A stretch of DNA of 64,000 bases from a virus (IMGVR_UViG_3300045988_162176:150143-214142), one strand, 5' to 3'. Positions 429-61,623 are shown, numbered from the stretch's first letter. A program made the numbers and translations. The notes: generated by a model from the letters alone, not told the origin.

Positions 429-753
429 CTGTTATGTTTAAATGATTCGCTAAATCATTCGAGAAAATTCTCCTCATACTTTCATATGAGCACTGACTAT
501 ATCTTCACCCTTATTATAAGGGGCGTACTTTTTCGGAAAATCAATCGCTTATTTCCCTACTCCTTTTTAGGATAGTCGATGGACATTATTCTATTCAAAT
601 CTTCGCTGCTGATTATCTAATCTTTATATTTTTTTAGCATTCACATTTAAGTTTATTTCATCTTTATGTTGTAGCATATAAAGCTCTAAAGATTTCCCAG
701 CAATTAAATACGTTTTCACTCACATATTACTATGTTTGCGACCTATTTTATTA
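429..753 (-). ncRNA. Group I-like intron A (no ORF) interrupting the giant gene
   Basis: Non-coding insert of 325 nt. It starts with in-frame TAA TAA straight after GCT (exon ends in T) and ends in ...AACAG before ATT AGT. It shares sequence blocks with the inserts at 19245-19604 and 26310-26681: GTTGTAG, TTCCAGCAATT, GCTGCTGATTA, TAGTCGxTGxAC. Confidence 0.6.
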
Positions 754-3700
754 AGCCGCCGCCATATCAACCGCAGTTAATTTATCAACAACTTCTCCCA
801 CTTCATCAACAGAAAGTTTCCAACCTTTAAGAACAGAAATTAAATATTCCGTAGCTTTGGCGGAATCAATCATACCAAGAACGCTAAGATTCATGGAATT
901 TTCAACAAGCTGAGAAGCTTCTTGTCCTTCGTAACCAGCACGAAGCCAATCGTTAGCTGCCGTGGCAACTTCTTCTGTACTCTTACCAACTTTACGAGCT
1001 AATGTATTAAAATCAAGCATCATGCTTTGAATCTCTTTATAGCTGTAACCACTTGCAATCTGCAAGTCAACCATTACTGCATTAAGAGACTTAGCACTAT
1101 TCATGATTTGATTAAACATATTTCTAACAGTCATTGCCAATTGATTAGCAATAACATCAATACTTACTAATCTTGCAAAACTGTTAGTAAACGTCTTTCC
1201 TATAGTTTCAAGAACACCTTTTTGCTCTCTATAAGTAGCATTAATTTTAGTAAGCTTAACTTGATGTTGAGCTTGCAAATTAGCTTCCTGTTGTTCGAGC
1301 TTATTAATGGCTTCTTGACTATAGCCCATTTCTTTAAGTTCTTTAACTCTTTCTGCATATACAGTACCCTATTGCTTTAACAAATTCAATTGTTCACTTA
1401 AAGCGGTACGAATATTTTCCTGCTCAAGTTTTTCATATCCTGAAGAATTACTGACTTTTAAATCTGTTCTTTGAATCTCTTCTTGCAACTTCATCTGTTG
1501 CTTAAGATTATTAAGATAATCCTTAATATCTTTATTACCTTGAGAATTTTGGAAACCTGTATTCCTGTTCATTCTATCAGTAATAAATTGAGGTCTATTA
1601 TTTAATTTTTCACCATTCTGATAGTAACCAGTGGTAGCAAATTGAGATTCAGCAAGAATTTTATCCTGTTGAATACCTTGTCCTTTAGAGCCTCTTTCAA
1701 GACCTTCGGCAACAGTTGCCATAGAAGCAGCTTTACCCTTAGTTGTTTCAACAAAAGATTGACCATCCTTTGTAAAGCTTCTAATAATTTGCACGAAAGA
1801 ACGAGCAAAAGCTTCAACACGAGCTTCACCATCTTCAATAATAGCAGAAATATCTCCCGCCCCAGAGTCTTTATCAAAGCCTTCGAATCCGAGTTCAGCA
1901 ACTCTTGTCTTCAAATCACTTGATAAACTATCAAAAGATTTACCTTCAGATTGAGCTTGCTTTAATTTTTCAACAACCTGACTGTATTCAGATTCAGCCA
2001 TCCTAAGATAAGTACTTGCTTGTAAAACACGAGCGGCACGCATCCGTGGGTCATCTTCTCCACCACTGTTAGAGAATTTCCAGTCTGCAACAGTTACATC
2101 TGCGTATTTACCATTAACTTTTTGACCAAAAGTCAAAGCATCCGCAGTACCAGCAAAAGCACGATTACCAATAACTCCACCAAGCTTAAGCTCTTTGAGT
2201 GTGGAACTATTTAACGCACCAGATGTTCTTGCAGCATTAACAACATCACGGGCTCTACCCTGTTGGCGTTGCAAATCTTCCGCTGTTACAGATAAACCAG
2301 CGCCTCCAAGTTGAGGCGATTTTCTAACTTCATCTATTAATTGCTCCATTAACTCATCAGTCATATTGTCGATGTTTTCAACAATAGCATGAGCAAATGT
2401 ACCCAACGCAGAAGCTTTATTACCAGATTGAGTAGTATTCGGGAATTTACTGTAATCTTCATAAGGCGCAGTTGTCACTTGAGTAACAGACCTAAGATTT
2501 CCGCCCTCAGAAGAATAAGTCTTATCACCGACCTTCATAGTTCTGGAATGACCTTCACCAAGTTCACTCACAACATCAGCCGCAATAAATTTAGCCCATT
2601 CGCCACTTGCGTCTTTCAAATTAGCCGCTTTATCAATAGAATTAGTCTGAGAAGCTGTTTGATTTGCTTGAGCAACAGGAGCATTTGCTTTTACTTCAGT
2701 AGCACCATTTACATCAATGTTACCAGTATTAACAATAACTTTACCATTCTGAGCATTAACAACAACATTACCCTTAGCATTAATAACAGAACCTTCAACA
2801 GTTTCTTCTGTGCCATCTTCAGAAACTCTTACCCATTCGCCATTGTCATTAAGATAAGTCTTATCTTTTCTTAATTCACCATTAAAGGTGCGATAAGGGT
2901 CTAATGCTTTAGAATAATTAGTGGCGTCCTTAAGAGAAAGACCCATTGGTTTAAGATAAGCTTCAAAACTATTAAACGCTTCAATAAGATTTTCCATGGT
3001 CGCGCCCTTAAAGGATGCAAATTTACCATTCTCATCAACGGTAGCAATTCCCATCTTTGTAAGAGCATCAATCTAAGCTTTATCTCCACTTGCAATTATT
3101 TGAGAAGCAACAGTTTCAAACTGCTTACCGTCCATTATACTGCCAAGAACATTAAGGTCTTTAGCAATACTTAAGAAGCCCTTTTGGTCATCAGTATCAG
3201 CAAAACGTCCTTCATGAATTGCACTAACCAAATCTTTAACAGCTAATAAAGCTTGGTCTTCACTCATTCCTTCTTTGCCGATTAATCTTGCGTAAATCTT
3301 TTTAGAAGAAATCGCATCCTGTTCAAAAGATTCCATGGTGGCTCTAATAATAGCAGATTGCACAGCAGAAGTTGCACCATTATTGTCGGCAAACCCTGTT
3401 TTGTACATAGCTTCTCTTGCTTTAGTGTCAGCATCAGAGAACAATCCGACGTTTTGGAATGCCATTTTAGCCTGTTCAGATGCATCTTTATTTATCCATT
3501 TCTTAGATAAATTTTTAGCAATCGTATTCCAGCTATCATCTATATCGACTTTTTTATTTTGAGCTTTTTGCTTTTGAATCTGATTCATAATACTTGCAAC
3601 AGTATCATTGTATTTTAAGATATAATCCTCTGCAAGTTTTTCATCTTCACCATATTGTTCATATACCTTAAGAGCCATGCGGAATTTATCACCGTCAAAG

Positions 3701-6700
3701 TCTCCTCGGAACAATTCAGCCAAACCAGCACTAACTCTAATTGTATCGCCAGCAGATTCGTCCAAACCAAGTCTTGCAGTATATCCTTCCATACCTTGAG
3801 TATAAGGATAACGACCCACTTCTGTAGTAAAAGTGTTATTGCCGCTCTTTATCTCACCAATAATAGCGCCAATAATTTCTTCTTCAAATTGATTTATTTC
3901 ATCTTCCGAAAGTTTATTGGTAAACTTTCCATCTTCAAACCGAGGTCTTAAAGACATCGAAGTAATAACTCTTTGTCCACTCTCTTTAATAGATTTTGCT
4001 CTTAAAGTAGAAAAGAGTCTGTTAATATTTTCAAGCCTGTCTTGTTTAGTAGCGGAAGATGTACTGCTCATTAATTCTCTTAAACGCTTAGAAGAAATAT
4101 AAACCGTATTAGCTTGTTCATCTGTTAAATCAGCCAACTTAGAAGTACCCGCCGCAACAGAGAAAGCAGAATAAGGTACATAATTATGAGTAGCTTGTTT
4201 TACCAACTCGGAATCTTTTGTATTGCCAAGTTTATGATAAACATCAGCCGCATATTGCTTTGCTTTCTCAAAAGCTTCTTGGGATTCTGTAGCAGCTTGC
4301 AGTAATGCAGAGTTAGCACTATCAATAGCGCCAGAATAATATTCTCCATCAGGAGACATTGCTGCACCAGCATCTCCAAGCAAATATTTCTTTCCACCAA
4401 TGGCAGAATCAGAAAGATTTAATACAATATTACCACGAGCATAAGCTTCACCTTCAGACCCTTCTAAAGCAGAAAGTTCTTTTTGAAGTTGACGTGCTCT
4501 TTCCATAGCGAAGTTTTGGTATTCCTCCGCACTTATCTTACCAGAATGTCTTAAAGCATTGATGTCAGTAAGAATATCAGAATAAACCTAATCACCAGCT
4601 TGAAGAACTACTTGACCATCTTGAACTCTAAATTCAACATCTTTTGTTCCTTTGGCAGTGGTATAATCTGTAACATTATTAAGAGATTTGTTAGCTGCAA
4701 TTAAATTCTTGCGAACTTTTTGAGCCTCCAAACCTTTTTTGCCATATGTATTATCTTGTTTTTCTTGTTGAGCTTTTAAGCTCTTCAAACCAGCAATAAC
4801 TTTTTCTCTATCTTTAAGATTACTTTGACCAGCAGCAGATTTAGTAATATAATCTAAACTTCTTTGTCTTGCATTTCTTACTTTCCAGTCATCAGTAACA
4901 CGTCCATCTCTTTCAAGTGTATTTGCACTACCATAACCAGAAGCATTAGAATAAGGATAAATATTGTGCTGTCCAATGCCAAGAGAAGCTAATCCTTTAA
5001 TAGAATCATATATTGCCTATGCTTCAAAAGCACTCTTACCAATCCGTTTAAAGATTGCCAATGCAGATTGTTCGATTCCCTTAAAAGAAGCTAACGTTTC
5101 CTCTGGATTAGCAAAAACATCTTCGCCTCGCTTGTTTGTAACAACACCATTTTTCTCATCGGTAATATCAACAAGTAATTTCTTTTCTTCTCCATTCTCT
5201 CCCGTTACAGTTTGAATTTCAAACATCTTCTAAAGGAGAGGAGGTAAATTACTATAAATGTTTTCAAGAGAAGAGCCTTGTTCCAAAGCCTTATCAATAA
5301 TGGTGTTTATTTGACCCATGAACTCAGAATAATAATTACGTTCTTTTACATCATCATTCAGCAAAGTCAAATAATCAGCATCAGCAATAGCATTCTTACC
5401 TCTTGCAGCCCAAAACTGTTTAACAAAATCAGCTTTACTTACTCCATGTTGTTTTTCTGCATCAGCAGTTAAACGTCTACCACCTTCATCAACAAGCTTT
5501 ACACCTTGTTCAACTTGTCTAAGTCTGTCAACCAGTAATTTCCAACCGTTATCAGTTTTCTCAAGACCAACCAGTAAATCCCCCTCATTTACAGAGAAAT
5601 CTTTAGAGAACATCTTAAACTGGTCTTTGCCAACTGTTTGATTAATATCAATAACTGAACCAGTTTGATAATCGCCAGAAGCAAGACTATCAATATCTAC
5701 ACCAAACTGATTTAAGAAATCTAAAACAATATCTTCAGTATTGGTAGCCTTAGACACATTCCTTTGAATACTTTCAGTTTCAGCAATAATCTTGTCTGTA
5801 ACTAAAGCAACATCGGTCATATCTTTCAACATAGAATCTATTCTATGTGTATAATCTTTATCGCTTTCACCAGCCATTTGAGGATTGAAAGATTGATAGT
5901 ACGCTCTTTCAGCTTCATCAAATTCTTTTTGAGTTAAACCATAACTCTTATATCTCTTATGTGTGATATCTGTTCTATCAATACCAGCATCCAAAGCTTG
6001 CTGAGTAGTAGTAACAACTTGACTCATGGCATCAGAAGATGCTTCTCTACTTGCAAGAGCTTTTTCAGATAATCTTAAAGTATCAAAAGCCTGAGATAAA
6101 CTTCTTTGAGTTGCGTCTATACCTTGACCAAAAGGAACATATTGTCTTGAAGATACGGTGTAATTTTTACCAAGAGCAAATTTACCCTCGGATTCACCAG
6201 TATAATCGCTTGGCATCGCCGCACCAATTTCTTTAGCCGCTTTTCTATAATATTTAAAAGCATCACTGGTCATAATGAATTTAACCAGTTCATCAGCTAT
6301 AGTATCTGGGTCTAAATTTTCTTTCATAGCCAACGCCCAAGCATTAGCCATAGCGTCAGTTAATTCTTTACTTGGGTCAAAAGCATTGTAATTTGCTTTA
6401 TACCCTTCGTTATTTCCTGTAAAATAGCCACTTAATGCCTCTTTAACATCTTTTTGATTAAGAGTAGACTGAATTTCTCTAGCGATACTATATTGAGTAG
6501 AACGCATAGCTTCTAATTCGGTTAATTTACCAGAATAGCGAGTATTAGAATCTTGAATGTCTTCTCTTGCTTCAGAACCCATCGTAACAGAAGATACTTT
6601 GTTAATAGCTCTGTTTGCCCCTGATTGCAAACGACGAGAAATTTGGTCGGAAGAATATTTAGTAAAATCTGTATTTCTTAAAATAGAAGTCGCATCTTTA

Positions 6701-8160
6701 ACCTGTAAAGTTTCTGCCGTTTCCATTACTTTGACACCCTTTACTTCAGGAGTGCCATCTTCTTTCAATTTTCCAGTGGGGATAAATTCTGTTGCAACTT
6801 CAGCTTGATTGATTCTACCACCAGCAATTCTACCAGTTTCATCACCAACTGCAAAAGATACTTTTATATTATTCTCTTTTTTCCAATCTGTTGATTTGTA
6901 TTCTTTATCTAAAGGAATAAGCATAGCCTGAATTTCAGAACCATTTCTTCTAAAATAAACAGAATAACCTTTCTTTTCTGCTTCTTCAACAAATGTTGCT
7001 AAGGCATCACGAGTAGTACCATATCCCTTATTACCGCCACCCGTAATATTAGATACATCTTGTCCAGCTCTACTTTTTTGTCTGTTCCTATATTCAGCAC
7101 CAGTTAATGAAGCTTTCGCTCCTTCGTTAAAGCCATTAATTAAAGCATCTAAACTCTTATAGACTTCAACAGAATGACCTTGAATATTTTCTTTGTCAGA
7201 AGCAAAAGTACCACCAAAAGATTCAATTTGCTATTTTGACAAAGCTCCAGAAATTCCACCAGAATTTTTAGCAATTAAATTAAAACTGCTTCTGTATTTT
7301 TCTGCCTCTTTTTTAGCTGTTTCTTCAGTAACATTCCTCTAAGTTTGAATAGATTTGGAAAGCTAATTAATTATAGCCTCCACTCCATCAAAAGTATCAA
7401 AATCTTTAGAAGAAATAGCTTTTACAAAATCAGCTTTAACCGCACTATTAACCATTGTTTTTGGAGTTGTTGGCATTTTAACTGTTTTGCTTTTTGTGGC
7501 TTTTGCAACAGTTGGCTTTTTTGTTCCTATGTTGGTAATCCCCTAATTCAAAGACAAACCAACATCTACAGCCATTTTTTGAACAGCAGTAGCTAATTTG
7601 GCTTCTTCTTTAGAAGTATCAATAGGCGTAAAACCAGATTTCTTTTCTTGAAGTCTTTTTACTCTATATATAAGCTCTTGACCTCTTTCTTGTGCCTTTT
7701 GTGTCAAAGCTTGATAAATAAATTCATAAGCTTTCCTTTGCTCGTCTACACTTCCTTGAAAATTTTCAGCTTGTTTTATCATATCAATAGCCATATCAGC
7801 TTGCTAATTGATATAATCAATACCCTGTTGTTCTAACTATTGATTCTTAGCATCATTTACAGCTATTTTCTTTTTGTTCTTGTTGTTTTGCCCTTGTCTA
7901 CTAGCTTTTAAAGTCTCCGTAGACTTTTTCATATTAGAAATTTGTTGCTCTCTTTGAGCATTCAACATATCAATAACATCGTTAGTTTGAGTGCCATTAT
8001 TAATTAGACGCTTAGTAGCTTCTTGGGCTTTCTTTGTATCTATAGCCTAACCAGTACTCTTACCTTTTTCATCCAAGCCATAAGTTTTTTTTATATCCGA
8101 ATATGCTTTAGCTTGAATATCTTCTATTCTCTATTCTAAACTTTTCAGTAAATCTTCCAT
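754..8160 (-). CDS. Giant virion protein, exon 1: N-terminal two-barrel RNAP-like region (DFDGD at 3688-3702) fused to a tape measure domain; 13 in-frame TAG
   Basis: ATG at 8158-8160 has GGAGG 8 nt upstream. ORF-track fragments 7543-7794, 5230-6924, 5017-5226, 4588-4788, 3073-4506, 1369-3054 and 751-1329 share one frame and are separated only by TAG. I checked every in-frame codon in the inter-fragment gaps (6925-7542, 7795-8160) and the short junctions at 5227-5229, 4789-5016, 4507-4587, 3055-3072 and 1330-1368, and found no TAA or TGA. The C-terminal part (1329 to 754) reads ...LNAVMVDLQIASGYSYKEIQ...VDKLTAVDMAAA, matching a TP901-type tape measure core. Confidence 0.8.
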
Positions 8161-51098: not shown

Positions 51099-51857
51099 TT
51101 ACTTCTTAGGTTTTCCCTAAAGCAATAACAACCAAACATCTCTGTTAATTACACCGTTCTATCTCAAACCATACATCTTTTGGTATTGTTTTACTACATT
51201 TTCCAGCTATTCATCGAAAATTGTGTCTGTCCCAGCATTAAACCCTAAAGTATTAAAAAGAATCTTAGCCATTTTAACAGCTTCATTATTATTGTCTATG
51301 TTTAAATAAGGTACTTGACCAGCCATAGTTCTAATATTGGTTTTGTCAACTGGAACTTTATAACCGATTGCAGCTTTAGCATAATTTGGTAAACCAAAAC
51401 CTCTAATATATTTACCATCAATTTGCATTGTGCGACTCTTAACTTCACTGGAATAATTTCCTTCTAAAACTTTAAAGGTGTTTCCACTTACGTCACAAAC
51501 CATGCCAACATGGTCAGCTTCTCCAGTACATTCTCCAACTCCACTGTCTTGCCAATCGTAAAAACACAAATCTCCAATTTGAGGTTTATAATTATCTCCC
51601 TCTTCCCATCTTCCATTCTTTTGGTAGAGAGCTATCATTCTATTACAACTACATTCAGGATAGATATATTCCGTCAAATTTAATCTCTCTCCAAGAGCAG
51701 AAACGGTAGCTGCGCACCAAGGTTCTGTATACAGCATCATATGGTTTGCTGGTAAGGGAGTTATTCTATTATAAATATCAATAATCCATTTATGTTTGCC
51801 ATTAGCCACACTAAAACCAACCCAGCGATAAAACCATTCAACTGTCGTTTTTCTCAA
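51099..51857 (-). CDS. CHAP-domain peptidoglycan hydrolase with a C-terminal PG_binding_1-like domain; 3 in-frame TAG
   Basis: EPWCAATVS...EADHVGMV gives the CHAP Cys/His pair. The C-terminal AVKMAKILFNTLGFNAG...FDE*LENVVKQYQKMYGLR*NGVINRDVWLLLL is complete only with TAG read-through. Confidence 0.65.
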
Positions 51858-52683
51858 CTGCTATTCCGTCATCGTTAATTTCTCCTTGCCAAGCTTCGTT
51901 TCTCTTATTTTTGAGTTCAGCTTGTCGTTTCATCCACTCTTTATGCTCTTTTGCATGTTGCAAACGAGCAGCTTGCCTTTCCTTGACTTTTTCAGGGTCG
52001 GCTAAATATGGTTTCCAGTTTTTTTGAAAATCTTCATGAGTTTGCCACCATTCAGCTTTCATGTCTTCCAAAATATCTTCAAATGGTCGCTCAATCAAAT
52101 CTTCTTCAGCAACTCCATTTTCTCTTTGTTTTTCTAGGTCCATTTGCCTCATTAAAGCATGACGAGCTTCTTGATGTTTAATCCTTTTTCTTTCATTGCT
52201 CGCCTCTCTTGCTTTTTGATGAGGAGACTGAGGACCTTTTTTTTCTTCATCCGCTTTTTGACACAACTCTTGAATTTTTTCTTCAGACAAGCCTTCGTAT
52301 TCTGGAATTTCAGGGTCTCCAACATCTTGTCTATACTTCCTAGCTAACGAAGTATATCTATTTTCAGGCCAAGCAAAGAATTCATTTGCATAAACTCTAT
52401 CACAGTTTTTAGCCTCTCTACTAAATTTAATCATTGGATATCCTAAAAATGCAGAAGACCAAGCTTTTTGTTTTCTAATTTCAGGAAGCATTGAAACATA
52501 TCCTGTAATTTTATGAGATGGTTTGGTAGTTCCATAAATAGAACCAAACACAAAATCAAGCTAATCTTCCATTGCAATGGTATCAAGAATTTTGTATTCT
52601 AAAGATTCAATTACATTAGAAACAGTTTCTTTATCATACCCTGTTTCCTCCATAATTGCTTTAATCAATCTAAATCTTGTCAT
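51838..52683 (-). CDS. Protein with an HU/IHF-like N-terminal region and a long charged C-terminus; 1 in-frame TAG
   Basis: MTRFRLIKAIMEETGYDKETVSNVIESLEYKILDTIAMED*LDFVFGSIYG parallels the HU N-terminus (...ELIKAIAE.TGLSK..V..V......I...). Confidence 0.45.
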
Positions 52684-52705
52684 TGTATCACCTATATACA
52701 TGATT

Positions 52706-52824
52706 TTAGCTCCAAGTCATCAAAAGACAACTTGGAGCTAACATTCATTCTGTACAAACTTCTTTATCCAAAAGAAGTCTACTTTGTCGTTCACTTTATA
52801 CAAGTTTCTTTATCCGAAAGAAAC
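52706..52824 (-). promoter_or_regulatory. Three consecutive hairpins between the two HU-like genes
   Basis: GTTTCTTT/AAAGAAAC (52804-52824), ACTTCTTT/AAAGAAGT (52758-52778) and a 12-bp stem TTAGCTCCAAGT/ACTTGGAGCTAA (52706-52741). The first two belong to a duplicated unit of about 45 nt. Confidence 0.55.
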
Positions 52825-52848
52825 CTACTTTGTAAATTATTCCTTCTA

Positions 52849-53124
52849 TTAAGCCTTTGCTACAGAAGAAAACTTAGCATAAGGAACACCGTCACGAGCG
52901 GGAATATCAATAGCCTCACCCGTTGCAGGATTGTGACCCTTGCGAGCATCACGATGTTTACCACCCACAGTCAAAACCGAACCAACCTTAACCGCATCGT
53001 TCTTAGCAATAACATCGAGGAGAACCTCGCTCATGCCCTTGATAACAGCGTCAATATCCTTCTTGGAAACATCCGCACAAGCCTCAGTGTCCTTAATAGC
53101 AGCAATAAATTCATTCTTAACCAT
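52849..53124 (-). CDS. HU-family DNA-binding protein
   Basis: MVKNEFIAAIKDTEACADVSKKDIDAVIKGMSEVLLDVI...GHNPATGEAIDIPARDGVPYAKFS fits the HU pattern. AAAGGAG RBS. Confidence 0.8.
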   Translation of the reverse strand: MVKNEFIAAIKDTEACADVSKKDIDAVIKGMSEVLLDVIAKNDAVKVGSVLTVGGKHRDARKGHNPATGEAIDIPARDGVPYAKFSSVAKA

Positions 53125-53218
53125 AATATTAAATACTCCTTTAAATCTTTTAAATTTTAATTTTTAAAATTACCTTTTAAAACCTTTATTTATCAAGGTT
53201 TCCCCTTGACTCGCTTTA

Positions 53219-53247
53219 TATATAACACAATTTTATATCTTTGTCAA
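53219..53247 (-). promoter_or_regulatory. Sigma70-like promoter for the HU gene
   Basis: On minus: cTTGACAAAGAT..., a 17-nt spacer, then TATATA. Confidence 0.55.
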
Positions 53248-53292
53248 GAGTTTTTCGAAAAATTTTTCCAAAAATTTTAGAAACAGTTTCTA

Positions 53293-53727
53293 TCAATCTT
53301 CAGTATAAGCTTCAACAACCTTATGGGGCTTATACCCACCCTTAGATTTGTTATTGCTCCAAATACCGAGCTCAAGCATAATCTTAGAAATCTTCTTGCA
53401 ACGATAAACGCCGTATGAATCTTGGAAACAAACAGCATTGACCTTATATTCACCCCAACGCTGAGTATTCGAATCATTCAAAATCTTCTTTTCAACAAGC
53501 TTGTTATACTGATTAACACTAATTCTCTGAAGATTCAAATCATCATACTTACCCAAGAAGAGCATAATTTCAGGTTCTTCAGCAACATAAATTGTCTTAT
53601 CACGACCTACATGTTCTCTATTAGTAACAGTATAATTCGCATCCTGTGGATTCAAACCAACCTGTCTATTCTTAAGAAGACCAACTCTCTCTAATTCTTT
53701 ACGCTCGTATTTAGAAACCTTAATCAT
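53293..53727 (-). CDS. Hypothetical protein
   Basis: Intact ORF with a TGA stop. Confidence 0.55.
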   Translation of the reverse strand: MIKVSKYERKELERVGLLKNRQVGLNPQDANYTVTNREHVGRDKTIYVAEEPEIMLFLGKYDDLNLQRISVNQYNKLVEKKILNDSNTQRWGEYKVNAVCFQDSYGVYRCKKISKIMLELGIWSNNKSKGGYKPHKVVEAYTED

Positions 53728-53872
53728 AAATTAATCAATCCTTTTTTATTTTTAAATTTGGAGAAATTTTATTCCTCTCTCCTTTTATTTTTTTACTGTT
53801 TTTTGAAAAATTGTCATTTTCGCCATATAAAATATGGGCTTATTTTTTATATTTTTTCGGAGGATACCCTTT

Positions 53873-54595
53873 TTAATTATTTAATAATAAACCGCCTTCG
53901 GTTGCATTGTAACCGTTATAATAACTGTTAAATTCTTTAATATAATACTTTTCCCAATAAGAAGCAGCTTCTTCACATATGTTTTCTTTTAATATATTAT
54001 GTTGAAAATTTTTCCATCCATATTTCTTAATAGCATTGTAAAATTTCTTTTGTTTGTAATAACCGCTGCCATTTTTCCAGCATTTAAAAGGGTCTTGTTG
54101 AGTTATACCAATATAACTTTTACCATTGGGAGAAATGTGTTGATAAACTATCCAATTACCTTTTTCATTGTTCCAATCTATACTGTTTTTAAACTTCAAA
54201 AGTTCTTTTGTTAAATTTACGCCCACTTTTGTAAAAGTGGAAGTAATAGTATGATATTCTCTAATGAAAAAATCTTTTTCTTCTTTTAATTCTTCTTCTG
54301 AAAATGGTTCGCTCTTTAAAAATGTTGTTTCTTTATAAATAAAAGAATTATACAGTTTAACATTATTAACAAAACCTCTTTTATATAGCGCTTCACAAAA
54401 AGCAGAATAACATTTTTCTTTTATTAAGTACAACTGCTTTTCAGATAAAGAATTATCATTCATTTTTAACATAAAAGATTTTGTTATTTTTAGCGACCCT
54501 ATCCATTTATACTGTATTATACATTCTTTTCTTTTAATGTCATCATATTCTTTTAATTTACCGATACATAAAAATAATAAATAATTATTTTTCAT
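53873..54595 (-). CDS. Protein with a C-terminal GIY-YIG nuclease domain
   Basis: NWIVYQHISPNGKSYIGIT...YNAIKKYGWKNFQHNIL...EKYYIKEF...GYNATEGG. Confidence 0.6.
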   Translation of the reverse strand: MKNNYLLFLCIGKLKEYDDIKRKECIIQYKWIGSLKITKSFMLKMNDNSLSEKQLYLIKEKCYSAFCEALYKRGFVNNVKLYNSFIYKETTFLKSEPFSEEELKEEKDFFIREYHTITSTFTKVGVNLTKELLKFKNSIDWNNEKGNWIVYQHISPNGKSYIGITQQDPFKCWKNGSGYYKQKKFYNAIKKYGWKNFQHNILKENICEEAASYWEKYYIKEFNSYYNGYNATEGGLLLNN

Positions 54596-55562
54596 CTTCT
54601 TTAATTTGATTGAAGCAATCTCGACATATAATGTCTGTTAATTTAGTATACTTGTTGATTTCTATTTCTTTTCCGCATTTTGAACATTTAACTTTTCTTA
54701 AATTTTCTCCCTCTTTAAAGATTTTCTTCTTACCAAGTAATTTTGCACAATCTTTACAATATTTAGGAGGTCTTCCTCTTTTTTCAGGGGCGTTCTTTTT
54801 TGTAAAAAATACTGTTTTCCCGCAATTCTTGCACTTGTAGCTCGGATATTTTTGACTTTTTATCCAATTTCCGCAATTATATAAATCGTCACCGCTTAAT
54901 AAAATTCTGTTTTTATCCGTAACAGGAATTTTAAATACATCATTGTCCATAAATTTAGGTATAATTCCTAAACCATGATTTATATCAATATATCCCATAT
55001 CATACAGCAAATTCCTTTCATTTTTTAAGGAAAAGCTAGCTGTTAAACCAGCATCTTGCTTAAATCTTTTTCGGTCTCTATCAGTCCAATAAATTCTATC
55101 TGGCTTTTCTAAATAATTTTCTTGAACTTTTACCCATACAAAAATAGTAAAAAGAAATTGTATTCTTCTTATATTCATGGGTTTCTTAGAAATCTTTACA
55201 TTTGACCTTCTGTTTTTTAAAGATTCCAACTCTTCTTGTGTTAGACTGGTTTCACTTAAATTTAAAAACCAGTCTAACACTTCTTCGGAAAATTCTATTT
55301 GCTTAATTTGTCTTAAGGGGTCTTCTTTTTTCCAAGCTTTTTCAAAAATGTTGTTAAAAGTCGCATAATGAACATTTTTGTTCCACCCTACAACATAGCG
55401 TTCACATTTTTCTTTGGCTTTTAATTTGGCTTCTGCTTTTTTATCCCCTTCAAGCTTATAATATCTAATAAGAAGAATTAAATCTCTTTTCCATTCTTTC
55501 TAAGAGAGACCTGACTATAATACATTTTTAATATAACCAACTTCATCATATATATCAATCAT
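54585..55562 (-). CDS. Hypothetical protein with C-terminal multi-CxxC zinc-ribbons; 2 in-frame TAG
   Basis: ATG at 55562 after GAAGGAG, overlapping the upstream TGA. CKNCGK...CKDCAK...CSKCGK...CRDC. Confidence 0.5.
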
Positions 55563-58416
55563 CTGTTATTTCTTCTCCTTCTAAATCGCTAACTAAATAT
55601 CTCTCTATAGAAAAATTATCATATAAAAATTTTAAAGAACCATTATCATTCTTTAAAGGATAATAAAAGCTAGTTGTTTTTTCTTTTAAATTTTCGTAAA
55701 TTTGTTTACCAGCAACAGCCCATAAAATATTCTTATTATAAGAGGGTTTATCGACATAAAATAAATATACTAAATGATTAGCCAATTGCTCAGAATTTGA
55801 ACAAATATCTTCTAATTCATTTTTTAGATTTTGATATAAAATTTCTCTATCAAGATTTTCTTGAAAACCTACTCTTGTAACCATATTTGAGTAAATTTGC
55901 TTTCTTTTTTCTTCCCAGCTCTTAACTGTGTTGACAACTTTTTCTAGAATTTGCTGATATAAAGCTCTGTTTAAAACAAAGTCTTTACTCTGTAAAGATT
56001 TATAATCAAAATCTCCATTTGACTTTATCTTTTTCTTAATTTGAAAATCTATACTTTCTATATATTTACAAATTTTATTCATTACACAAGGAGAATCTAT
56101 AACTGGGTAATAATAATGATAGTAATTTATAAAGTATTTTTGCTCTTGAGTTAATTCGTCTTCTTTTTTAATTAAAAGTTCATCCAATGTCATTGCAAAT
56201 CTAATTTGACAATCCTCATTGCTCTTGTTAATAAAATCTCTTAACTCTTTATTGGTTTTATTATATTTATATTTAAAGAAATAAGGCTTTTTCTCGGCTA
56301 AGATTCTATTGTAAAAATCTTTCTTTTCTTTTTCTTCTAAACTTTCGTCTTTAGTGTGATGCTGATATTGTTTCCAAATAGTTGCTTCAGCCTTAACATT
56401 TTCGCCAATCTTCGTCTTATCAATCTAGCGGCTCTAGCTGCCACAGCACATTTTAACTCTGTCTTCGAGCAAATTTCTTTCAGGTGTTCCCTTTTCAAAA
56501 TTTGCGATTAAAGCGCAAAATGTTGTTGAAACATTAGTAATTTGACCAATTCTTGTACCAAAACTAAAAGTGTCAGTAAAAAATAAATCATCTTCTGTAA
56601 ATATTTTCTTATGAGGCTTTTTAGGCTGATAGGTAACTACTCTTTGATTAGGAAATTTACCATTGATAACTTCTGGCCTCACCAAATTTGCTGCAATATC
56701 CATGTCAAAATCGCTCCCAGAGAAATTCATTGTGTAAATACCATGAATATTAGTTATCATACCAGTATAAGAAAACTTAAAATATTTTTCTATTTTTCTA
56801 ACAACTTCTTCATCAGACATTCCCATATTTCTGTCAATTACTTCCTCAGAAGAAAAATTGTAACGATAATCTTTATCAAGTTTATATTTATTCTTTGCTA
56901 TATACCATTCACTAAAATGAGTCATTGGACTTCTTGCACAGGCAATTCTTTCCTCATCCTTTTTAGCCCAATAATTCATATAAAATTCCCGTTCTTTAAG
57001 TAAGCCTGTTACTTTTTGACCAGTAATCCATTGCATTAAACCGTAAGAATCTGGCACAATAACACTAAAATTTCCTTCGCAATTTATTTTACCTAAACAA
57101 GCAAGCTGAATTCTTTTTGCAATTAAATCTCTAATTTTTTCTTTAGAGTATTTATCGTTAATTAAAGTTTGATTGAGAATTAAACTTTTCAGCCAATAAT
57201 CTTCACTATTGCTCATAAATTTAGAAATTCGCTCTTTATCATAGCTATCTCCCATTAAATATAAAAGTGTATAGTAAACATTATCTCCGCTTACGCCAGA
57301 AATATAGTCTACCGTGTCTTGGCATAAAGTTTTAATATCTTCGTCAGATAAATTTAATGTCTGCAAGAATTGATAGTTCATGGTAAGAACTTTTTTATCT
57401 TCTCTTGGAGTGTATTTAGTTACTCCAAAATAAATTCCGTTCTTATCTCCATTTTCTTCCAAACTTTCCTGAGAATCCCAACTATCCCATAGTTTAACTT
57501 GACCTTCTGTAAGAATAACATCTATTTCTCTCAGGTCTCGAATTTTACCGTAAACATCTTTGATTAAATAATTACCATTATTTTCTTCTTTACACCATTC
57601 TATAAAATCAAATTCGTTTACCATTCCTTTAGTAAACGCATATCTAATACAGAATTGACAAGGAGTGTAATCTTCACCAAGGTCTTTTCCCCATTGTTCA
57701 GCCATTTGAGGACTGATTAAACCAGAACCATCAAATCTATTAAATTCAATGTCAATTGTCCTTGGTTCTATAATGTCATCTTGGTCTATTGGTTGTTCAA
57801 TAATAAAGTCAACATCAACCATTTTATTTTCTAAATAATCAGGAACAACACAAAAACGGGGTTTTGTTACTTCTTTAGTCGCACTTGAATATAAACCAAA
57901 ATATGCATTATATTTACTAGGAGCTAATGGATGATTTAAATCCCTTCCATTATCAAGTCTTCTCTTTAATTCTGTTTTTATGGTTTCTTCACAAAAAACA
58001 ACCGTGCTAACTCTTGCTTGAGAAGCAGAGCAAGAAAGCCTTTTGTAAGTTTTTCCATTGAATACAAAACCTTTTTTATAAATCTTTTCATATTCCTTTA
58101 CACTATCCATTGTAACAGTAATATACTCAGGAATATACATCATATTATAAATTTTGCTTTGTAATTCTTTTACTTTTTCACGATTTGTTTTGCTATTTTT
58201 CTTTCTCTTTAATCTATCTCTTTCAGAGTACCATTCTTCAAGCTGTACTCTATCAATCTTCTAACCAGTTATATCACGAATACTCTTTAGCATTTGACTA
58301 TCTGCTAAAGAAACAATTAGATTGCTCTTTAAACAATCTTGAAAACTAATGTCTAAATTATAGCCGTTTTCTTTAATTAATGCACTGTTAAGCTTAACGG
58401 TGTAAAATAAACGCAC
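55555..58416 (-). CDS. YonO / eukaryotic-RdRP-like single-subunit two-barrel RNA polymerase; 3 in-frame TAG
   Basis: GTG at 58416 after GAAGGAAGG. Fragments 56434-58143 and 55555-56193 are in frame. DFDMD at 56698-56712 within NFSGSDFDMDIA. Upstream lie ARSPMTHFSEW and QFCIRYAFTKGMV (57619-57657). Confidence 0.65.
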
Positions 58417-58441
58417 TTAGTTACCTTCCTTCGCTGGAATT

Positions 58442-59158
58442 TTAAATAATTTGACTAACCTCGGTAATCATATCCATAATATCAAAACCATCAAGGTCAA
58501 TATCTTCAATATCTAATTTTGTTATAAATTCTAAAATTTCAAAAACTTGCGAAATATTATCTACAATATATAAATTTTCAAGGTTCTCCGTTTCAACTTT
58601 AGGTCGATTAAATCTTGTCTCTTTTCCATTCCTTACAAGAATCTTTAAATCTGCATCAGTTCTATTAAGAAAACTATAATTATCATCAATTTGAATCCGT
58701 CCTAACATATGGACATCTTCTTTCTTCTCTCCATGACCTAATCCAAAATACCGCCATTTCGATTCGTTGCGTTTAAAAAACGGAATCTTATTTAAGTAAT
58801 CAAGTTTTTTCTTTAATGATTCTTTTGAGCCTTTTGTAAGTAATATCCAATTATATTGTTGCCAAATTCCTCTTTCATCATTTTCAGAATCTTCTAAAAC
58901 TTTCATTAGTGCTTCATTTGGTTTGACTGATGACCAAAACTCTTCTGATTCATAGATTTCACTAACTTGTTCTTTAGTTAAATTTCTATAAATACTTTTA
59001 TATCCCCAGTCAACCAAATCATCTAAAGTCTTATTTAAACCATATCGCTAATTTAAAATAGCTACTACTGCTACTGAACTATCTAACAAAACATCATCTA
59101 CATCTAAAAAAATTGTCCTCTTATTAAGGTCTATATCTATATTTTTTACAATCTCCAT
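58442..59158 (-). CDS. HAD-superfamily hydrolase (5'-nucleotidase-like); 1 in-frame TAG
   Basis: IFLDVDDVLLDS is the DxDxV motif. The start is uncertain: the frame stays open through a TAG up to an ATG near 59271. Confidence 0.5.
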
Positions 59159-59300
59159 CGGTTGCTTTAATGTATTCATCTATGCTTTTGCATTGCTTTT
59201 TTGCTTAAGAATTATACATTGTTGTACCTCTCTTTCTATATTTTTATCGGATAAATTCACAATTCTCATTGGTATTAATCCGCTTTTCTTTTATGTCTGA

Positions 59301-59329
59301 ATTGTAACACATGTTTCTATTTCTGTCAA
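59301..59329 (-). promoter_or_regulatory. Sigma70-like promoter heading the minus-strand block
   Basis: On minus: TTGACA, 17 nt, TACAAT. Confidence 0.6.
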
Positions 59330-59367
59330 CTATTTCTGAAAATTTTTTAATAGCGTTCATAAAACCC

Positions 59368-59397
59368 TTGACTTTTCTATGTTTATTATGTTATACT
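59368..59397 (+). promoter_or_regulatory. Sigma70-like promoter (plus strand)
   Basis: TTGACT, 18 nt, TATACT. Confidence 0.45.
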
Positions 59398-59403
59398 CTT
59401 GCA

Positions 59404-59646
59404 AGGAAGGATACTCAAAATTAAAAAAGTCAATTCTACTCATACAGAATTTTTTCGATGTCGTTAGTTTTGTAAAAAGTACTCATACATTTCCATATTT
59501 TTAAAAAATACTTCAGACACCAGTGATTTTAAGGGTTTTTTCGCCGTCCTTAGTGACTTACAGAATATAGACTAAATAATATAAAAGAAAGACTATACAC
59601 CCGCGCATTATCATGCTTGGGTGTGCAATGCACCTTTTTTCTTTAT
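59404..59646 (+). ncRNA. Candidate small RNA between a promoter and a terminator-like hairpin
   Basis: No ORF. The 3' end has CACCCGCGCAT-TATC-ATGCTTGGGTG, a small GGTGT/GCACC stem and T6. Contains repeated TACTCATACA boxes. Confidence 0.3.
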
Positions 59647-59684
59647 TTTTTCTATATTTTTAAAGAATTTTTGAGAGAAAAGAC

Positions 59685-59713
59685 TTGACAAAATTAAAAA
59701 TATATGCTACATT
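59685..59713 (+). promoter_or_regulatory. Sigma70-like promoter of the plus-strand module
   Basis: cTTGACAAAATT..., a 17-nt spacer, then TACATT. Confidence 0.55.
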
Positions 59714-59756
59714 ATTTTTGAAAAATTGAATTGACCTATAAAGGTGTGAATATAAT

Positions 59757-60536
59757 TTGGAAGAGACTAATCAAAATCAAATCAGTTCTCCTTTTGTTAA
59801 AATTCCAAATGGTGTAATTGAACTTTCTAATACTGTTAATTCATATACTTGTCTTACTTATTTGTTTTTAGCTATTAATAAGAATATGCTTGGAAAAGTA
59901 AATAGTAGTGTTTTATTTTTAGAAGAATGTTATATAGATGATAGTATAGAAAATCAAAAAACTAAAGCTTCTAAAATTAGTAAAATACTTTCTTGTTTGT
60001 ATTTACTTTCTAATACTGTAATAAATAGCAAAAAAGAAATTATATGCGATTCCATTATTGATATTCCTAAATATGGAGATTACTTTAATCATTGTGAATT
60101 TCAAGTAGAAGAAGCTATAGAATTAATAGAAAAAGAAAAACAAAAACTCTTAACAAAATATCAAAGATTTCCTCAATATATGCTTTCTATTAAAGTAGAT
60201 AATGATGATATTAATGGTAAATTTACTATTCTTACTATTGAAGATTATTTGGCTATTATGTCTTATTGTTTAAAAGAAAACCATAAGGAAAAATTAAAAA
60301 TTGATAGCTTACTTAACACTTATCTTTTAATTAAAATGAAAGTAAATAGAAATCAGGCTCTTAACAAAGCTTTCCCTCATGGTTGGGAAAACAAAGAATA
60401 TATTGCTTTAACCAAACTTGAACAATTAAGTTCTTTATCTTCTGTTACCCTAAGAAAATATCTTAATGCTTTATTAGAATTGAATCTTATTGAGAAATGT
60501 ATTGTTAAGAAAAAAGTCGTTTTTAGGCTTAAATGA
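59757..60536 (+). CDS. Hypothetical protein with a winged-helix-like C-terminus
   Basis: TTG start 11 nt after AAAGGTG. ...SSVTLRKYLNALLELNLIEK. TGA stop. No in-frame TAG. Confidence 0.55.
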   Translation: MEETNQNQISSPFVKIPNGVIELSNTVNSYTCLTYLFLAINKNMLGKVNSSVLFLEECYIDDSIENQKTKASKISKILSCLYLLSNTVINSKKEIICDSIIDIPKYGDYFNHCEFQVEEAIELIEKEKQKLLTKYQRFPQYMLSIKVDNDDINGKFTILTIEDYLAIMSYCLKENHKEKLKIDSLLNTYLLIKMKVNRNQALNKAFPHGWENKEYIALTKLEQLSSLSSVTLRKYLNALLELNLIEKCIVKKKVVFRLK

Positions 60537-60598
60537 TATGCTAATTATTGAATTTTAAATCAAATTAAAAAATACTTGAATAGAGGTAAAAATTAATT

Positions 60599-61575: not shown

Positions 61576-61623
61576 ATAACAGTTTAAAATTTTTATCTGT
61601 GAATTTTACAAGGAGAGAAAATT

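What the first reader, a model, noticed from the sequence alone, without database searches (positions are those of the whole stretch)
55555..58416. Second, YonO/RdRP-like RNA polymerase: a two-polymerase phage
This 953-codon ORF has three in-frame TAGs and carries:
- NFSGSDFDMDIA (DxDxD at 56698-56712);
- IACARSPMTHFSEW upstream, comparable to V.V.R.P..HPGD in cellular RdRPs;
- QFCIRYAFTKGMV (57619-57657), which as I recall resembles the FQIRYGGYKGVV motif of eukaryotic RDRs.

Its size and motifs fit the YonO-type phage RNAPs of Bacillota prophages. Together with the DFDGD giant protein, the phage would have a virion-associated and a non-virion two-barrel RNAP. That arrangement is analogous to N4 and jumbo phages but built from this fold. 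The sigma70-like promoters also present suggest a three-way division of transcription.
Basis: partly seen in the sequence, partly recalled or inferred. Interest (0 to 1): 0.65.

Follow-up and report, generated by a model that had tools for sequence, protein, structure and literature searches.

The report
YonO-type phage RNA polymerase, TAG-recoded
This gene encodes a single-chain RNA polymerase of the known YonO/RDR type that probably switches on a large gut-type phage's late genes. The same phage also carries a second, polymerase-like module fused to its tail tape-measure protein, an arrangement previously shown only in one Thermus phage group.

Summary
On the minus strand, 55555-58416 is one 953-codon frame (GTG start with a strong Shine-Dalgarno, TGA stop). 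It is interrupted only by three TAGs, and the three motifs sit exactly where stated. TAG is a sense codon (Gln) throughout this phage's late block.

The protein is a genuine YonO/RDR-type two-barrel RNA polymerase:
- It matches Pfam RdRP PF05183 at 53.7 bits (cut-off 23.8).
- tblastn hits SPbeta-group yonO directly.
- The DxDxD triad and the R...KG and RSP motifs are invariant in 34 homologues and in YonO.
- A confident AlphaFold model (pLDDT 86) matches only RDR2 and QDE-1 in the PDB (E down to 4e-16).

It sits in a three-gene operon behind a near-consensus sigma70-type promoter, upstream of an HU-like gene and the packaging, structural and lysis genes, as yonO does in SPbeta. It most likely transcribes the late genes.

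The "two-polymerase" idea also holds up. The giant tape-measure gene carries a conserved hRYPSTSG...NAD[YF]DGD module whose model matches only RNAP beta' subunits, and it co-occurs with the YonO-like gene in divergent ~200 kb phages. A second barrel and any activity remain unshown. P23-45 is the precedent.

An early in-frame TAG in the polymerase gene is unusually conserved.

The parts
55555..58416 (-). YonO/RDR-type single-chain two-barrel RNA polymerase gene: 953 codons, GTG start, TGA stop, three in-frame TAG (=Gln).
57619..57657 (-). QFCIRYAFTKGMV: beta-hairpin of the first (beta-like) barrel. F255, C256, R258, K263 and G264 are invariant. It aligns with FMVRLPWVKGLL of YonO.
   Evidence: In the model these residues are strands E213-218/E221-227 at pLDDT >90.
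56905..56946 (-). IACARSPMTHFSEW: R495-S-P497 motif preceding the catalytic barrel. R495 and P497 are conserved through to YonO (ILRSPHLY).
56698..56712 (-). DFDMD: the catalytic DxDxD metal-binding triad (D569, D571, D573).
   Evidence: Invariant in 34 homologues and in BUCT082, PMBT24 and phi3T YonO. The equivalent triad is essential in YonO (3D>3N mutant inactive, PMC5467207).
58261..58263 (-). In-frame TAG, codon 52. Retained as TAG in 10 of 11 distinct orthologues at 60-98% identity; the remaining lineage has a TAG at codon 41 instead.
56425..56436 (-). Two in-frame TAGs (codons 661 and 664) inside the conserved QSRQIDKTKIG motif. Both are Gln in standard-code relatives. As TAG they are found only in the window's nearest relatives.
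58424..58432 (-). Shine-Dalgarno GAAGGAAGG, 7 nt upstream of the GTG start.
   Evidence: read directly from the sequence.
59301..59329 (-). Near-consensus extended -10 sigma70-type promoter (TTGACA-17-TG-TACAAT, 11/12), ~30 nt upstream of the first gene of the operon.
   Evidence: It is the best-scoring site in the 10-kb scan, but promoter-like sites overall are at chance level.
58442..59269 (-). First gene of the operon: NT5C-like 5'-deoxynucleotidase-type protein (275 aa, 2 TAG).
54585..55562 (-). Conserved partner gene (325 aa, 2 TAG, C-terminal CxxC zinc ribbons). Its start overlaps the polymerase stop by 8 nt. Candidate DNA-binding or specificity factor.
   Evidence: Homologous abutting genes in relatives: L012 323 aa (45% id, E 3e-81), L011 204 aa (E 8e-11), BUCT082 278 aa (E 7e-7). 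The Zn-ribbon resembles the YonO C-terminus. Weak NCBIfam hits to CxxC/RpoP-type ribbons.
51838..52701 (-). HU-like DNA-binding protein gene (N-terminal HU domain). An HU gene follows yonO-type genes in SPbeta/phi3T, BUCT082, PMBT24 and metagenomic relatives.
751..8160 (-). Giant ORF (2,469 aa in the window, 13 TAG) ending in a tape-measure (PhageMin_Tail) domain. It continues beyond a group I intron and off the window's left edge. Candidate tape-measure-fused virion RNA polymerase.
3076..4506 (-). Conserved RNAP beta'-like module of the giant (aa 1219-1695): hRYPSTSG...NAD[YF]DGDK, K.YVGqFSNvST..R, LEQDaISAKKV.
   Evidence: Model pLDDT 57. Foldseek top 50 hits are all bacterial RNAP beta' (E ~1e-6). 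hhalign places the triad block in register with E. coli beta' (E 1e-3, prob 19%).
3688..3702 (-). DFDGD of the giant protein (aa 1487-1491).
473..763 (-). Group I intron interrupting the tape-measure domain of the giant gene.
   Evidence: RF00028, 57.7 bits. The TMP reading frame resumes downstream.

Best explanation
Identity. The ORF encodes a single-chain, two-double-psi-beta-barrel RNA polymerase of the YonO / eukaryotic-RDR lineage (Pfam RdRP).

Proposed mechanism:
1. The gene is the second of a three-gene operon (NT5C-like, polymerase, Zn-ribbon partner). The operon is probably transcribed by the host sigma-A holoenzyme from a near-consensus promoter at 59329-59301.
2. A full-length enzyme is made only when TAG is decoded as Gln. 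The gene has an unusually conserved TAG at codon 52 and two more at codons 661 and 664.
3. The enzyme then acts as a DNA-dependent RNA polymerase. D569/D571/D573 bind the catalytic Mg2+ and R258/K263 come from the other barrel.
4. It transcribes the co-oriented downstream late block (HU-like, endolysin, terminase, portal, tail, tape measure), as YonO does for the SPbeta late operon.
5. The translationally coupled Zn-ribbon protein is a candidate DNA-binding or specificity factor.

Shown: family membership, fold, motif conservation, recoding, synteny.
Inferred: template preference, target genes, promoter use, role of the partner.

Second polymerase. The phage probably has one more: a beta'-like catalytic module embedded in the N-terminal ~1,350-aa conserved block of the tape-measure protein. 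By analogy with P23-45 gp96, it would enter the cell with the DNA and transcribe the first genes.
For: Sequence family:
- Pfam PF05183 RdRP, E 1.9e-14, 53.7 bits against a cut-off of 23.8, covering aa 106-701 and profile positions 55-555 of 582.
- phrog_8308, E 4e-129.
- tblastn: Spbetavirus BUCT082 42% identity over 98% of the query; c-st; PMBT24, Perkons and TR-TP1 annotated 'RNA-dependent RNA polymerase'; phi3T/SPbeta yonO E 2e-17.

Motifs:
- D569, D571, D573, R495, S496, P497, F255, C256, R258, K263 and G264 are invariant in 34 homologues at 48-74% identity.
- R258, K263, G264, R495, P497 and the triad are also kept in BUCT082, PMBT24 and YonO.

Fold:
- AF2 model has pLDDT 86.3 and pTM 0.82.
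- The top 21 PDB matches are all RDR2 or QDE-1, E 4e-16 to 8e-12, ~900 or more aligned columns. The next hit has E 0.086.
- BFVD top hits are phage 'RNA-dependent RNA polymerase' entries.

Function by homology: YonO is a processive DNA-dependent RNAP, its triad mutant is dead, and it transcribes the SPbeta late operon (PMC5467207).

Context:
- Promoter.
- Partner gene conserved and overlapping.
- HU-like gene and the late genes (endolysin, terminase, portal, TMP) lie downstream on the same strand.

Recoding.

Giant module. Precedent: PMC10770324.
Against: - No biochemical or expression data exist for this protein.
- The best structural matches are RNA-dependent enzymes, so template preference is not settled by the fold.
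- The family profile does not reach any PDB sequence, and NCBIfam has no model for it.
- No YonO promoter consensus is known, and none emerged from the intergenic regions, so the target genes are assigned only by analogy and synteny.
- Promoter-like hexamers are no more frequent than in shuffles.
- No suppressor tRNA lies in the window.
- For the giant: the model is low confidence (pLDDT 57), only the beta'-like barrel is seen, and there is no profile similarity to the YonO family.
Confidence: 0.8

Rival explanations
1. It is a true RNA-dependent RNA polymerase, as relatives are annotated in GenBank and as the Pfam name says. It would copy or amplify RNA, for example for regulatory or anti-defence small RNAs, rather than transcribe phage DNA.
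For: Pfam family RdRP. The closest solved structures are RDR2 and QDE-1. Homologues in PMBT24, Perkons and TR-TP1 are annotated 'RNA-dependent RNA polymerase'.
Against: The only characterised phage member, YonO, is DNA-dependent and transcribes late genes (PMC5467207). This is a dsDNA phage, and the gene keeps the yonO-HU-late-block synteny. Those annotations are transferred from the Pfam name and were not tested.
Confidence: 0.1
2. The gene is a decayed pseudogene. The three TAGs are genuine stops, and only fragments (for example the 569-aa ORF 56434-58143) or nothing are made.
For: Under the standard code the frame is broken three times. Public databases mostly hold the 569-aa fragment. No suppressor tRNA is in the window.
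Against: TAG is in frame in most genes of the block and never terminates one. TAG positions 661 and 664 align with Gln in standard-code relatives. Conservation runs through all three TAGs. TAG is strongly depleted relative to chance, 3 against ~21, as expected of a rare sense codon. Orthologues keep the frame intact over 60-98% identity.
Confidence: 0.03
3. For the 'second polymerase': the giant protein's DFDGD module is not an active RNA polymerase. It would be a structural or other enzymatic double-psi-barrel domain of the tape-measure protein (for example cell-wall-degrading or DNA-handling), so the phage has only one phage-encoded RNAP.
For: The model is low confidence (pLDDT 57). Only one barrel is seen. 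There are no Pfam, PHROG, PDB-sequence or NCBIfam hits. There is no profile similarity to the YonO family. hhalign to beta' is weak (prob 19%). Tape-measure proteins commonly carry lytic domains (general knowledge).
Against: The invariant RxP...NAD[YF]DGD signature across 24-36% identical proteins is that of beta'/Rpb1. There are 462 PDB hits at E<=1e-3, with the top 50 all RNAP beta' over ~270-290 columns, far more than a bare barrel. The conserved block is ~1,350 aa, the size of a single-chain RNAP. P23-45 gp96 was proven active on the same kind of evidence.
Confidence: 0.2
4. The enzyme primes DNA replication or makes a specific non-coding RNA rather than transcribing the late block.
For: Two-barrel enzymes include a DNA polymerase (PolD) and enzymes with mixed activities (PMC10770324). 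In SPbeta the YonO start site also precedes an unannotated non-coding RNA. A 590-bp gene-free gap lies downstream at 52702-53292.
Against: No replication genes are adjacent. The synteny is with packaging, structural and lysis genes, and YonO deletion silences 37 late genes.
Confidence: 0.05

Closest known systems
YonO of Bacillus subtilis prophage SPbeta (single-chain two-barrel DNA-dependent RNAP; Forrest et al. 2017, PMC5467207)
   Same: - Direct sequence homology (tblastn E 2e-17 to phi3T yonO; 42% identity to the orthologue in Spbetavirus BUCT082).
- Same three motifs, including the DxDxD triad.
- Similar size.
- Same position upstream of an HU gene and the late block.
   Different: - Only ~25% identical to YonO proper.
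- Triad is DFDMD rather than DNDGD.
- A ~27-aa disordered insertion before the triad.
- The Zn-ribbon that ends YonO is here, apparently, on a separate translationally coupled protein.
- The gene carries in-frame TAG codons in a TAG-recoded, ~200 kb uncultured phage.
Eukaryotic RNA-dependent RNA polymerases QDE-1 / RDR2 (Pfam PF05183; PDB 2J7N, 5FSW, 7W82, 7RQS)
   Same: Pfam family hit above the gathering score. Only these structures match the model (E to 4e-16, prob 1.0, ~900 or more columns). Same order of barrels and a DxDxD triad.
   Different: 11-14% identity and TM only 0.4-0.5. Phage-encoded, and expected to be DNA-dependent and promoter-directed. No RNAi context.
Thermus phage P23-45 gp96 (tape-measure-fused virion RNAP) plus gp64 (non-virion RNAP), Chaban et al. 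2024, PMC10770324
   Same: A giant tape-measure protein with a conserved DFDGD-type triad N-terminal to the TMP part and no other detectable RNAP similarity, together with a separate single-chain two-barrel RNAP in the same genome.
   Different: - No sequence match to gp96 in the PDB search.
- The non-virion enzyme here is YonO/RDR-type and likely late-acting, whereas gp64 transcribes early and middle genes and late genes use host RNAP.
- The two enzymes here show no profile similarity.
- Activity and virion location are untested.
crAss-like phage phi14:2 gp66 virion RNAP (PDB 6VR4) and phage N4 vRNAP
   Same: Large virion-delivered polymerases fused to big proteins. gp66 is also a QDE-1-like two-barrel enzyme (as described in PMC10770324).
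   Different: gp66 did not appear among significant fold matches of the target. N4 vRNAP has a different, T7-like fold (general knowledge). Neither is fused to a tape measure.

Membership tests
YonO-type phage single-chain two-barrel RNAP | Detectable sequence homology to YonO itself | tested here: met
   tblastn to phi3T/SPbeta-group genomes at E 1e-16 to 3e-18 over aa 112-497. The hit lies in phi3T_60, annotated 'similar to SPbeta yonO'. 42% identity over 98% of the query to the orthologue in Spbetavirus BUCT082.
YonO-type phage single-chain two-barrel RNAP | Catalytic DxDxD aspartate triad conserved | tested here: met
   D569, D571 and D573 are invariant in 34 homologues and align with FDNDGD of YonO.
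YonO-type phage single-chain two-barrel RNAP | Both double-psi beta-barrels in one polypeptide, with conserved basic residues in the beta-like barrel | tested here: met
   The full-length model matches QDE-1/RDR2 over ~900 or more columns. R258, K263 and G264 are invariant through to YonO. Barrel assignment of these residues is by homology; coordinates were not inspected.
YonO-type phage single-chain two-barrel RNAP | DNA-dependent RNA synthesis and transcription of the phage late operon | not testable with these tools
   Supported only by synteny: yonO-type gene, HU, then the late block on the same strand.
Pfam RdRP (PF05183; eukaryotic RDR/QDE-1 family) | Score above the family's curated gathering threshold | tested here: met
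   53.7 bits against 23.8, E 1.9e-14, profile positions 55-555 of 582. Most database homologues carry precomputed PF05183.
Pfam RdRP (PF05183; eukaryotic RDR/QDE-1 family) | Fold of solved members | tested here: met
   Top 21 Foldseek PDB hits are RDR2/QDE-1, prob 1.00, E 4e-16 to 8e-12, TM 0.39-0.49.
Pfam RdRP (PF05183; eukaryotic RDR/QDE-1 family) | RNA-templated synthesis | not testable with these tools
YonO, the nearest characterised relative, prefers DNA templates.
Tape-measure-fused virion RNAP (P23-45 gp96 type): the giant ORF 751-8160 | RNAP-type DxDxD motif conserved among homologues of a tape-measure protein | tested here: met
   NAD[YF]DGD and RYPSTSG are invariant or nearly so in 12 family members at 24-36% identity. 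PhageMin_Tail lies at the C-terminal end in the window's protein and in 4 distant members.
Tape-measure-fused virion RNAP (P23-45 gp96 type): the giant ORF 751-8160 | Two-barrel RNAP fold | tested here: inconclusive
   The model of aa 1219-1695 has pLDDT 57. Foldseek top 50 hits are all RNAP beta' (E ~1e-6), which supports the beta'-like barrel. No beta-like barrel was identified. One further conserved block lies at aa ~1056-1106.
Tape-measure-fused virion RNAP (P23-45 gp96 type): the giant ORF 751-8160 | Presence in virions and polymerase activity | not testable with these tools
   Inferred only from the tape-measure fusion.
Tape-measure-fused virion RNAP (P23-45 gp96 type): the giant ORF 751-8160 | Virion and non-virion enzymes are paralogues (as proposed for gp96/gp64) | tested here: not met
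   hhalign of the two family profiles gives prob 0.15%, E 0.4.

The most novel reading that the evidence does not exclude
This lineage of ~200 kb TAG-recoded phages runs a largely self-sufficient, two-polymerase transcription programme:
- A tape-measure-fused, beta'-like RNAP is injected with the DNA.
- A YonO-type RNAP handles the late genes.
- The selectively retained in-frame TAG within the first ~52 codons of the late-polymerase gene is a genetic-code checkpoint. Full-length late polymerase, and therefore late transcription, cannot appear until the phage has switched the cell to reading TAG as Gln.
Probability: 0.3. Interest if true: 0.75.

Novelty: new variant of a known kind. Interest (0 to 1): 0.55.

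Why it matters
On its own the gene is another member of the YonO/RDR-type polymerases, which are already recognised in Bacillota phages, so the basic identification is not surprising. Three things add value.

1. It appears to be paired with a tape-measure-fused beta'-like module. That would make this the second, evolutionarily unrelated phage lineage, after Thermus phage P23-45, to combine an injected tail-fused RNAP with a separate single-chain RNAP. Such fusions may therefore be a recurrent solution rather than an oddity.

2. A stop-type codon is retained near the 5' end of the late-polymerase gene across deep divergence. This gives a concrete, testable handle on the long-standing proposal that stop-codon recoding times late gene expression.

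3. A conserved, translationally coupled Zn-ribbon partner is a candidate for the still-unknown factor or promoter-recognition mechanism of YonO-type enzymes.

Tried and rejected
Searches and tests that gave nothing:
- PDB sequence searches with the protein and with the 34-sequence profile found nothing. The link to solved structures is by fold only.
- NCBIfam has no model for the target or the giant.
I modelled the 95%-identical P0001 instead.
- Giant protein: Pfam and PHROGs gave only the C-terminal tape-measure hit. The PDB sequence search was null. Both word-indexed protein searches were nearly empty. tblastn against 50,697 phage records was null. Only the exhaustive HMMER search found the family.
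- Paralogy test of the giant module against the YonO family was negative. The by-eye resemblance of IGQITNVST / VGqFSNvST and QIDKTKIG / EQDaISAKK is therefore not claimed as homology.
- The target family profile against E. coli beta' gave no meaningful alignment.
- A search for shared non-sigma70 motifs in 28 intergenic regions returned only AT-rich low-complexity words.
- No tRNA, and so no suppressor, lies in the window.
- Group I introns in relatives' polymerase genes were confirmed for only one of eight loci at Rfam gathering score.

Readings considered and rejected:
- crAss-like phage. The context is SPbeta-like or Bacillota-type instead.
- Primase or helicase fold. No such matches appeared.
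- Chance DxDxD in the giant. About 0.74 is expected by chance, but conservation rules this out.
Full report
**1. Observation.**
The feature is on the minus strand. Translating window:55555-58416:- gives one 953-codon frame ending in TGA. It has exactly three internal stops, all TAG, at codons 52, 661 and 664 (58261-58263, 56434-56436, 56425-56427).

With this strand's composition, a 953-codon stretch free of TAA/TGA has P ~2e-31. Shuffled windows never exceed 233 codons. TAG is depleted, at 3 observed against ~21 expected.

The GTG start at 58416 has a strong Shine-Dalgarno (GAAGGAAGG, 7-nt spacer), and homologues align from residue 4-5.

**2. TAG is a sense codon here.**
- Reading TAG as sense lengthens ORFs across the whole minus-strand block. 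One ORF reaches 2,469 aa with 13 TAGs.
- No gene ends in TAG.
- Genes on both sides of the polymerase gene contain in-frame TAGs.
- At codons 661 and 664 the standard-code Bacillus phage BUCT082 has Gln and Gln (QSAQIDK), and Q661 is invariant in 34 homologues.
- A 95%-identical database protein (P0001) has Q at all three sites.
- No tRNA lies in the window, so the suppressor, if phage-encoded, is elsewhere in a genome of roughly 180-220 kb (contig lengths).

**3. What the protein is.**

*Sequence.*
- Pfam RdRP (PF05183) matches at 53.7 bits (cut-off 23.8, E 1.9e-14) over aa 106-701 and profile positions 55-555 of 582.
- PHROGs gives phrog_8308, of unknown function, at E 4e-129.
- tblastn against 50,697 phage records finds 40 genomes. 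These include Spbetavirus BUCT082 (42% identity, 98% coverage), Clostridium phage c-st, and Enterocloster, Thomasclavelia and Psychrobacillus phages, some annotated 'RNA-dependent RNA polymerase'. They also include SPbeta, phi3T and their hybrids (E ~1e-17).
- The phi3T hit lies in the gene annotated as the yonO orthologue.

*Motifs.*
- In a four-way alignment with BUCT082, PMBT24 and phi3T YonO, these residues remain identical: R258, K263, G264, R495, P497 and the triad.

*Fold.*
- An AlphaFold2 model of P0001 (target residues 42-953) is confident, with mean pLDDT 86.3 and pTM 0.82.
- Foldseek against the PDB returns 21 significant hits, all RDR2 or QDE-1 (E 4e-16 to 8e-12, prob 1.00, about 900 or more aligned columns, TM 0.39-0.49). 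The next hit is P23-45 gp96 at E 0.086.
- The viral predicted-structure library agrees.

**4. How it most likely works.**
YonO is the only characterised phage member. It is a processive DNA-dependent RNAP, its 3D>3N triad mutant is dead, and its deletion silences 37 SPbeta late genes, which are transcribed as one operon from a start site upstream of yonK. Its promoter and any cofactors are unknown (PMC5467207).

The window reproduces the SPbeta layout:
- The polymerase gene is followed on the same strand by an HU-like gene (51838-52701), a CHAP endolysin (51099-51872), a split large terminase (48602-49180 and 46054-47256), a portal (31251-33071) and finally the tape-measure gene.
- The arrangement of a yonO-type gene followed by HU recurs in phi3T, BUCT082, PMBT24 and two metagenomic relatives.

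The polymerase is the second gene of an operon, NT5C-like (58442-59269), polymerase, then a 325-aa Zn-ribbon protein (54585-55562). The operon is headed by the best sigma70-type site in the region (TTGACA-17-TG-TACAAT, 59329-59301). Promoter-like sites as a class are at chance level (53 against 49 +/- 6.3).

I therefore infer host-RNAP expression of the operon, TAG-suppression-dependent translation, and then transcription of the late block by the phage enzyme.

The Zn-ribbon gene overlaps the polymerase stop by 8 nt, and abutting homologues exist in relatives:
- 45% identity, E 3e-81 (L012).
- E 8e-11 in a relative whose polymerase is 46% identical (L011).
- E 7e-7 in BUCT082.

Its CxxC ribbon resembles the C-terminus of YonO proper. 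It is a candidate DNA-binding or specificity factor, which is inference only.

**5. The 'two-polymerase' claim.**
The giant ORF (751-8160, 2,469 aa) matches only a tape-measure domain at its extreme C-terminus. That domain is cut by a group I intron (473-763), so the gene continues beyond the window.

One DxDxD is what chance predicts in a protein of this size (0.74 expected). Standard searches were also blank. An exhaustive HMMER search with the TAG-free sub-ORF 3076-4506 nevertheless found 17 representatives. The distant ones (28-36% identity) lie inside giant proteins of 2,166-4,071 aa.

- Conserved motifs: across the family the triad sits in an invariant block, hRYPSTSG...(25-30 aa)...NAD[YF]DGDK. 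This is followed by K.YVGqFSNvST..R and LEQDaISAKKV. That is the beta'/Rpb1-type signature.
- Register with beta': hhalign places the block in register with E. coli beta' ([25 protein letters not shown]), though only weakly (E 1e-3, prob 19%).
- Fusion architecture: four distant members also end in PhageMin_Tail, two with a PD-(D/E)XK nuclease in between.
- Extent of homology: homology among the giants spans ~1,350 aa, from about residue 300-360 to about 1650-1760.
- Fold: the AlphaFold model of the 477-aa module is poor (pLDDT 57). Even so, Foldseek gives 462 PDB hits at E<=1e-3, and the top 50 are all bacterial RNAP beta' chains (E ~1e-6, ~270-290 columns).
- Co-occurrence: at least four IMG/VR contigs carry both this module and a YonO-like gene. 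In one of them the module is 29% identical and the polymerase 60% identical to the window's (both lists were capped).

What is missing:
- A beta-like second barrel. Only one extra conserved block was found, at aa ~1056-1106.
- Any similarity to the YonO family (hhalign prob 0.15%).
- Activity and virion data.

The precedent is exact in kind. P23-45 gp96 was recognised as a tape-measure-fused virion RNAP from a conserved DFDGD with no other similarity, and it works alongside the non-virion gp64 (PMC10770324). That paper's survey of two-RNAP viruses does not mention tape-measure fusions paired with YonO-type enzymes.

**6. An unexpected regularity.**
- Among IMG/VR orthologues, an in-frame TAG at codon 52 is present in 10 of 11 distinct sequences at 60-98% identity. 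The exception has a TAG at codon 41.
- Most of these genes have no other TAG.
- TAG is only 6% of Gln codons in these genes (26 of 432). Other invariant-Gln columns show 0-2 TAGs, and column 661 turns over freely among CAA, CAG and TAG.
- Codons flanking TAG-52 vary synonymously.
- Standard-code relatives (L011, L012, BUCT082) have no TAG.

The sequences are not independent, so this is suggestive rather than proven. It fits a gate that ties synthesis of the late polymerase to the onset of TAG-to-Gln decoding. The TAGs at 661 and 664 are confined to the window's nearest kin and look like recent synonymous changes.

**7. Comparison and novelty.**
The gene is a member of the YonO/RDR (Pfam RdRP) family on every testable criterion, and only its activity is untestable here. 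That part is a new member of a known kind.

The system-level picture is a new variant of the P23-45-type arrangement. It comprises a YonO-type late polymerase, a tape-measure-fused beta'-like module from a family absent from cultured phages, a conserved Zn-ribbon partner, and a conserved early TAG, all in a TAG-recoded ~200 kb phage.

**8. Verdict.**
The caveats are that paralogy, virion location and the three-way division of transcription remain inference. Interest is moderate (0.55). Identifying a YonO homologue is ordinary. The second tail-fused polymerase lineage and the conserved TAG are what merit follow-up.

Noticed in passing
window 58261-58263 (codon 52 of the polymerase gene); loci L027-L097: The in-frame TAG near the 5' end is retained as TAG in 10 of 11 distinct orthologues (60-98% identity). 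The exception has a TAG at codon 41. TAG is only 6% of Gln codons in these genes, and flanking codons vary synonymously. This may be a code-switch checkpoint on late-polymerase synthesis.
   Followed up: partly
window 473-763, 19288-19599, 26364-26723 (all minus strand): Three group I introns at Rfam gathering score. The first interrupts the tape-measure domain of the giant gene. Four distant family members also end at about the same point of the TMP profile, which suggests an old, conserved insertion site.
   Followed up: partly
window 46054-49180: The large terminase appears split into an N-part (48602-49180) and a C-part (46054-47256) by a TAG-free GIY-YIG/NUMOD homing endonuclease gene (47689-48579). 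Further GIY-YIG endonuclease genes lie at 53873-54595 and 9626-11125.
   Followed up: no
L001 2617-5524 (phi3T); loci L035-L038, L043, L064, L071, L099: phi3T yonO is split into two ORFs exactly at the conserved Q..QID site where the window has its two adjacent TAGs. Eight metagenomic orthologues carry 1-1.5 kb insertions around codons 585-680. Only L064 gave a group I intron hit (70 bits).
   Followed up: partly
window 54585-55562: A 325-aa protein with three C-terminal CxxC zinc ribbons is translationally coupled to the polymerase and conserved next to it in relatives down to BUCT082. Its ribbon resembles the C-terminus of SPbeta-type YonO, as if one module were fused in one lineage and separate in another.
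   Followed up: partly
window 22953-30688 and 40177-45215; 59886-63767 (+ strand): Runs of genes with no in-frame TAG lie inside the recoded block, including repeat-rich, Ala/Thr-rich proteins at 41650-45215. The divergently transcribed plus-strand genes right of ~59.9 kb are TAG-free and mostly end in TGA. GC skew flips sign at ~60 kb. This is probably the early/late boundary.
   Followed up: no
window 15729-15825 (minus strand): Rfam 'drum' sRNA match just above the gathering score (44.7 against 43 bits) in the gap between two late-block genes.
   Followed up: no
window 11377-12375 and 13360-14670: A tyrosine-recombinase/integrase-like gene (phrog_1, E 6e-31) and a metallophosphoesterase/DNA-repair exonuclease gene sit inside the block between the tail genes. 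A metallophosphoesterase also follows yonK in BUCT082.
   Followed up: no
giant ORF aa ~1056-1106 (window ~4843-4995) and relatives P0124, P0128: A second strongly conserved block (iN.A...PY....G.GN....E..GRVKF..rER.A) lies ~400 aa upstream of the DFDGD triad. Two distant giants have a PD-(D/E)XK nuclease domain between the polymerase-like block and the tape-measure domain.
   Followed up: partly
polymerase aa ~515-541 (window ~56794-56874): A lineage-specific ~27-residue insertion (RYNFSSEEVIDRNMGMSDEEVVRKIEKY) just before the catalytic triad is absent from BUCT082, PMBT24 and YonO. It is predicted disordered (pLDDT <50).
   Followed up: no
window 50500-60500: Terminator-like hairpins are enriched (10 found against 2.8 +/- 1.6 in shuffles). 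One is at 59619-59635 (+) in the divergent intergenic region. A 590-bp gene-free gap at 52702-53292 lies between the polymerase operon and the HU-like gene.
   Followed up: no
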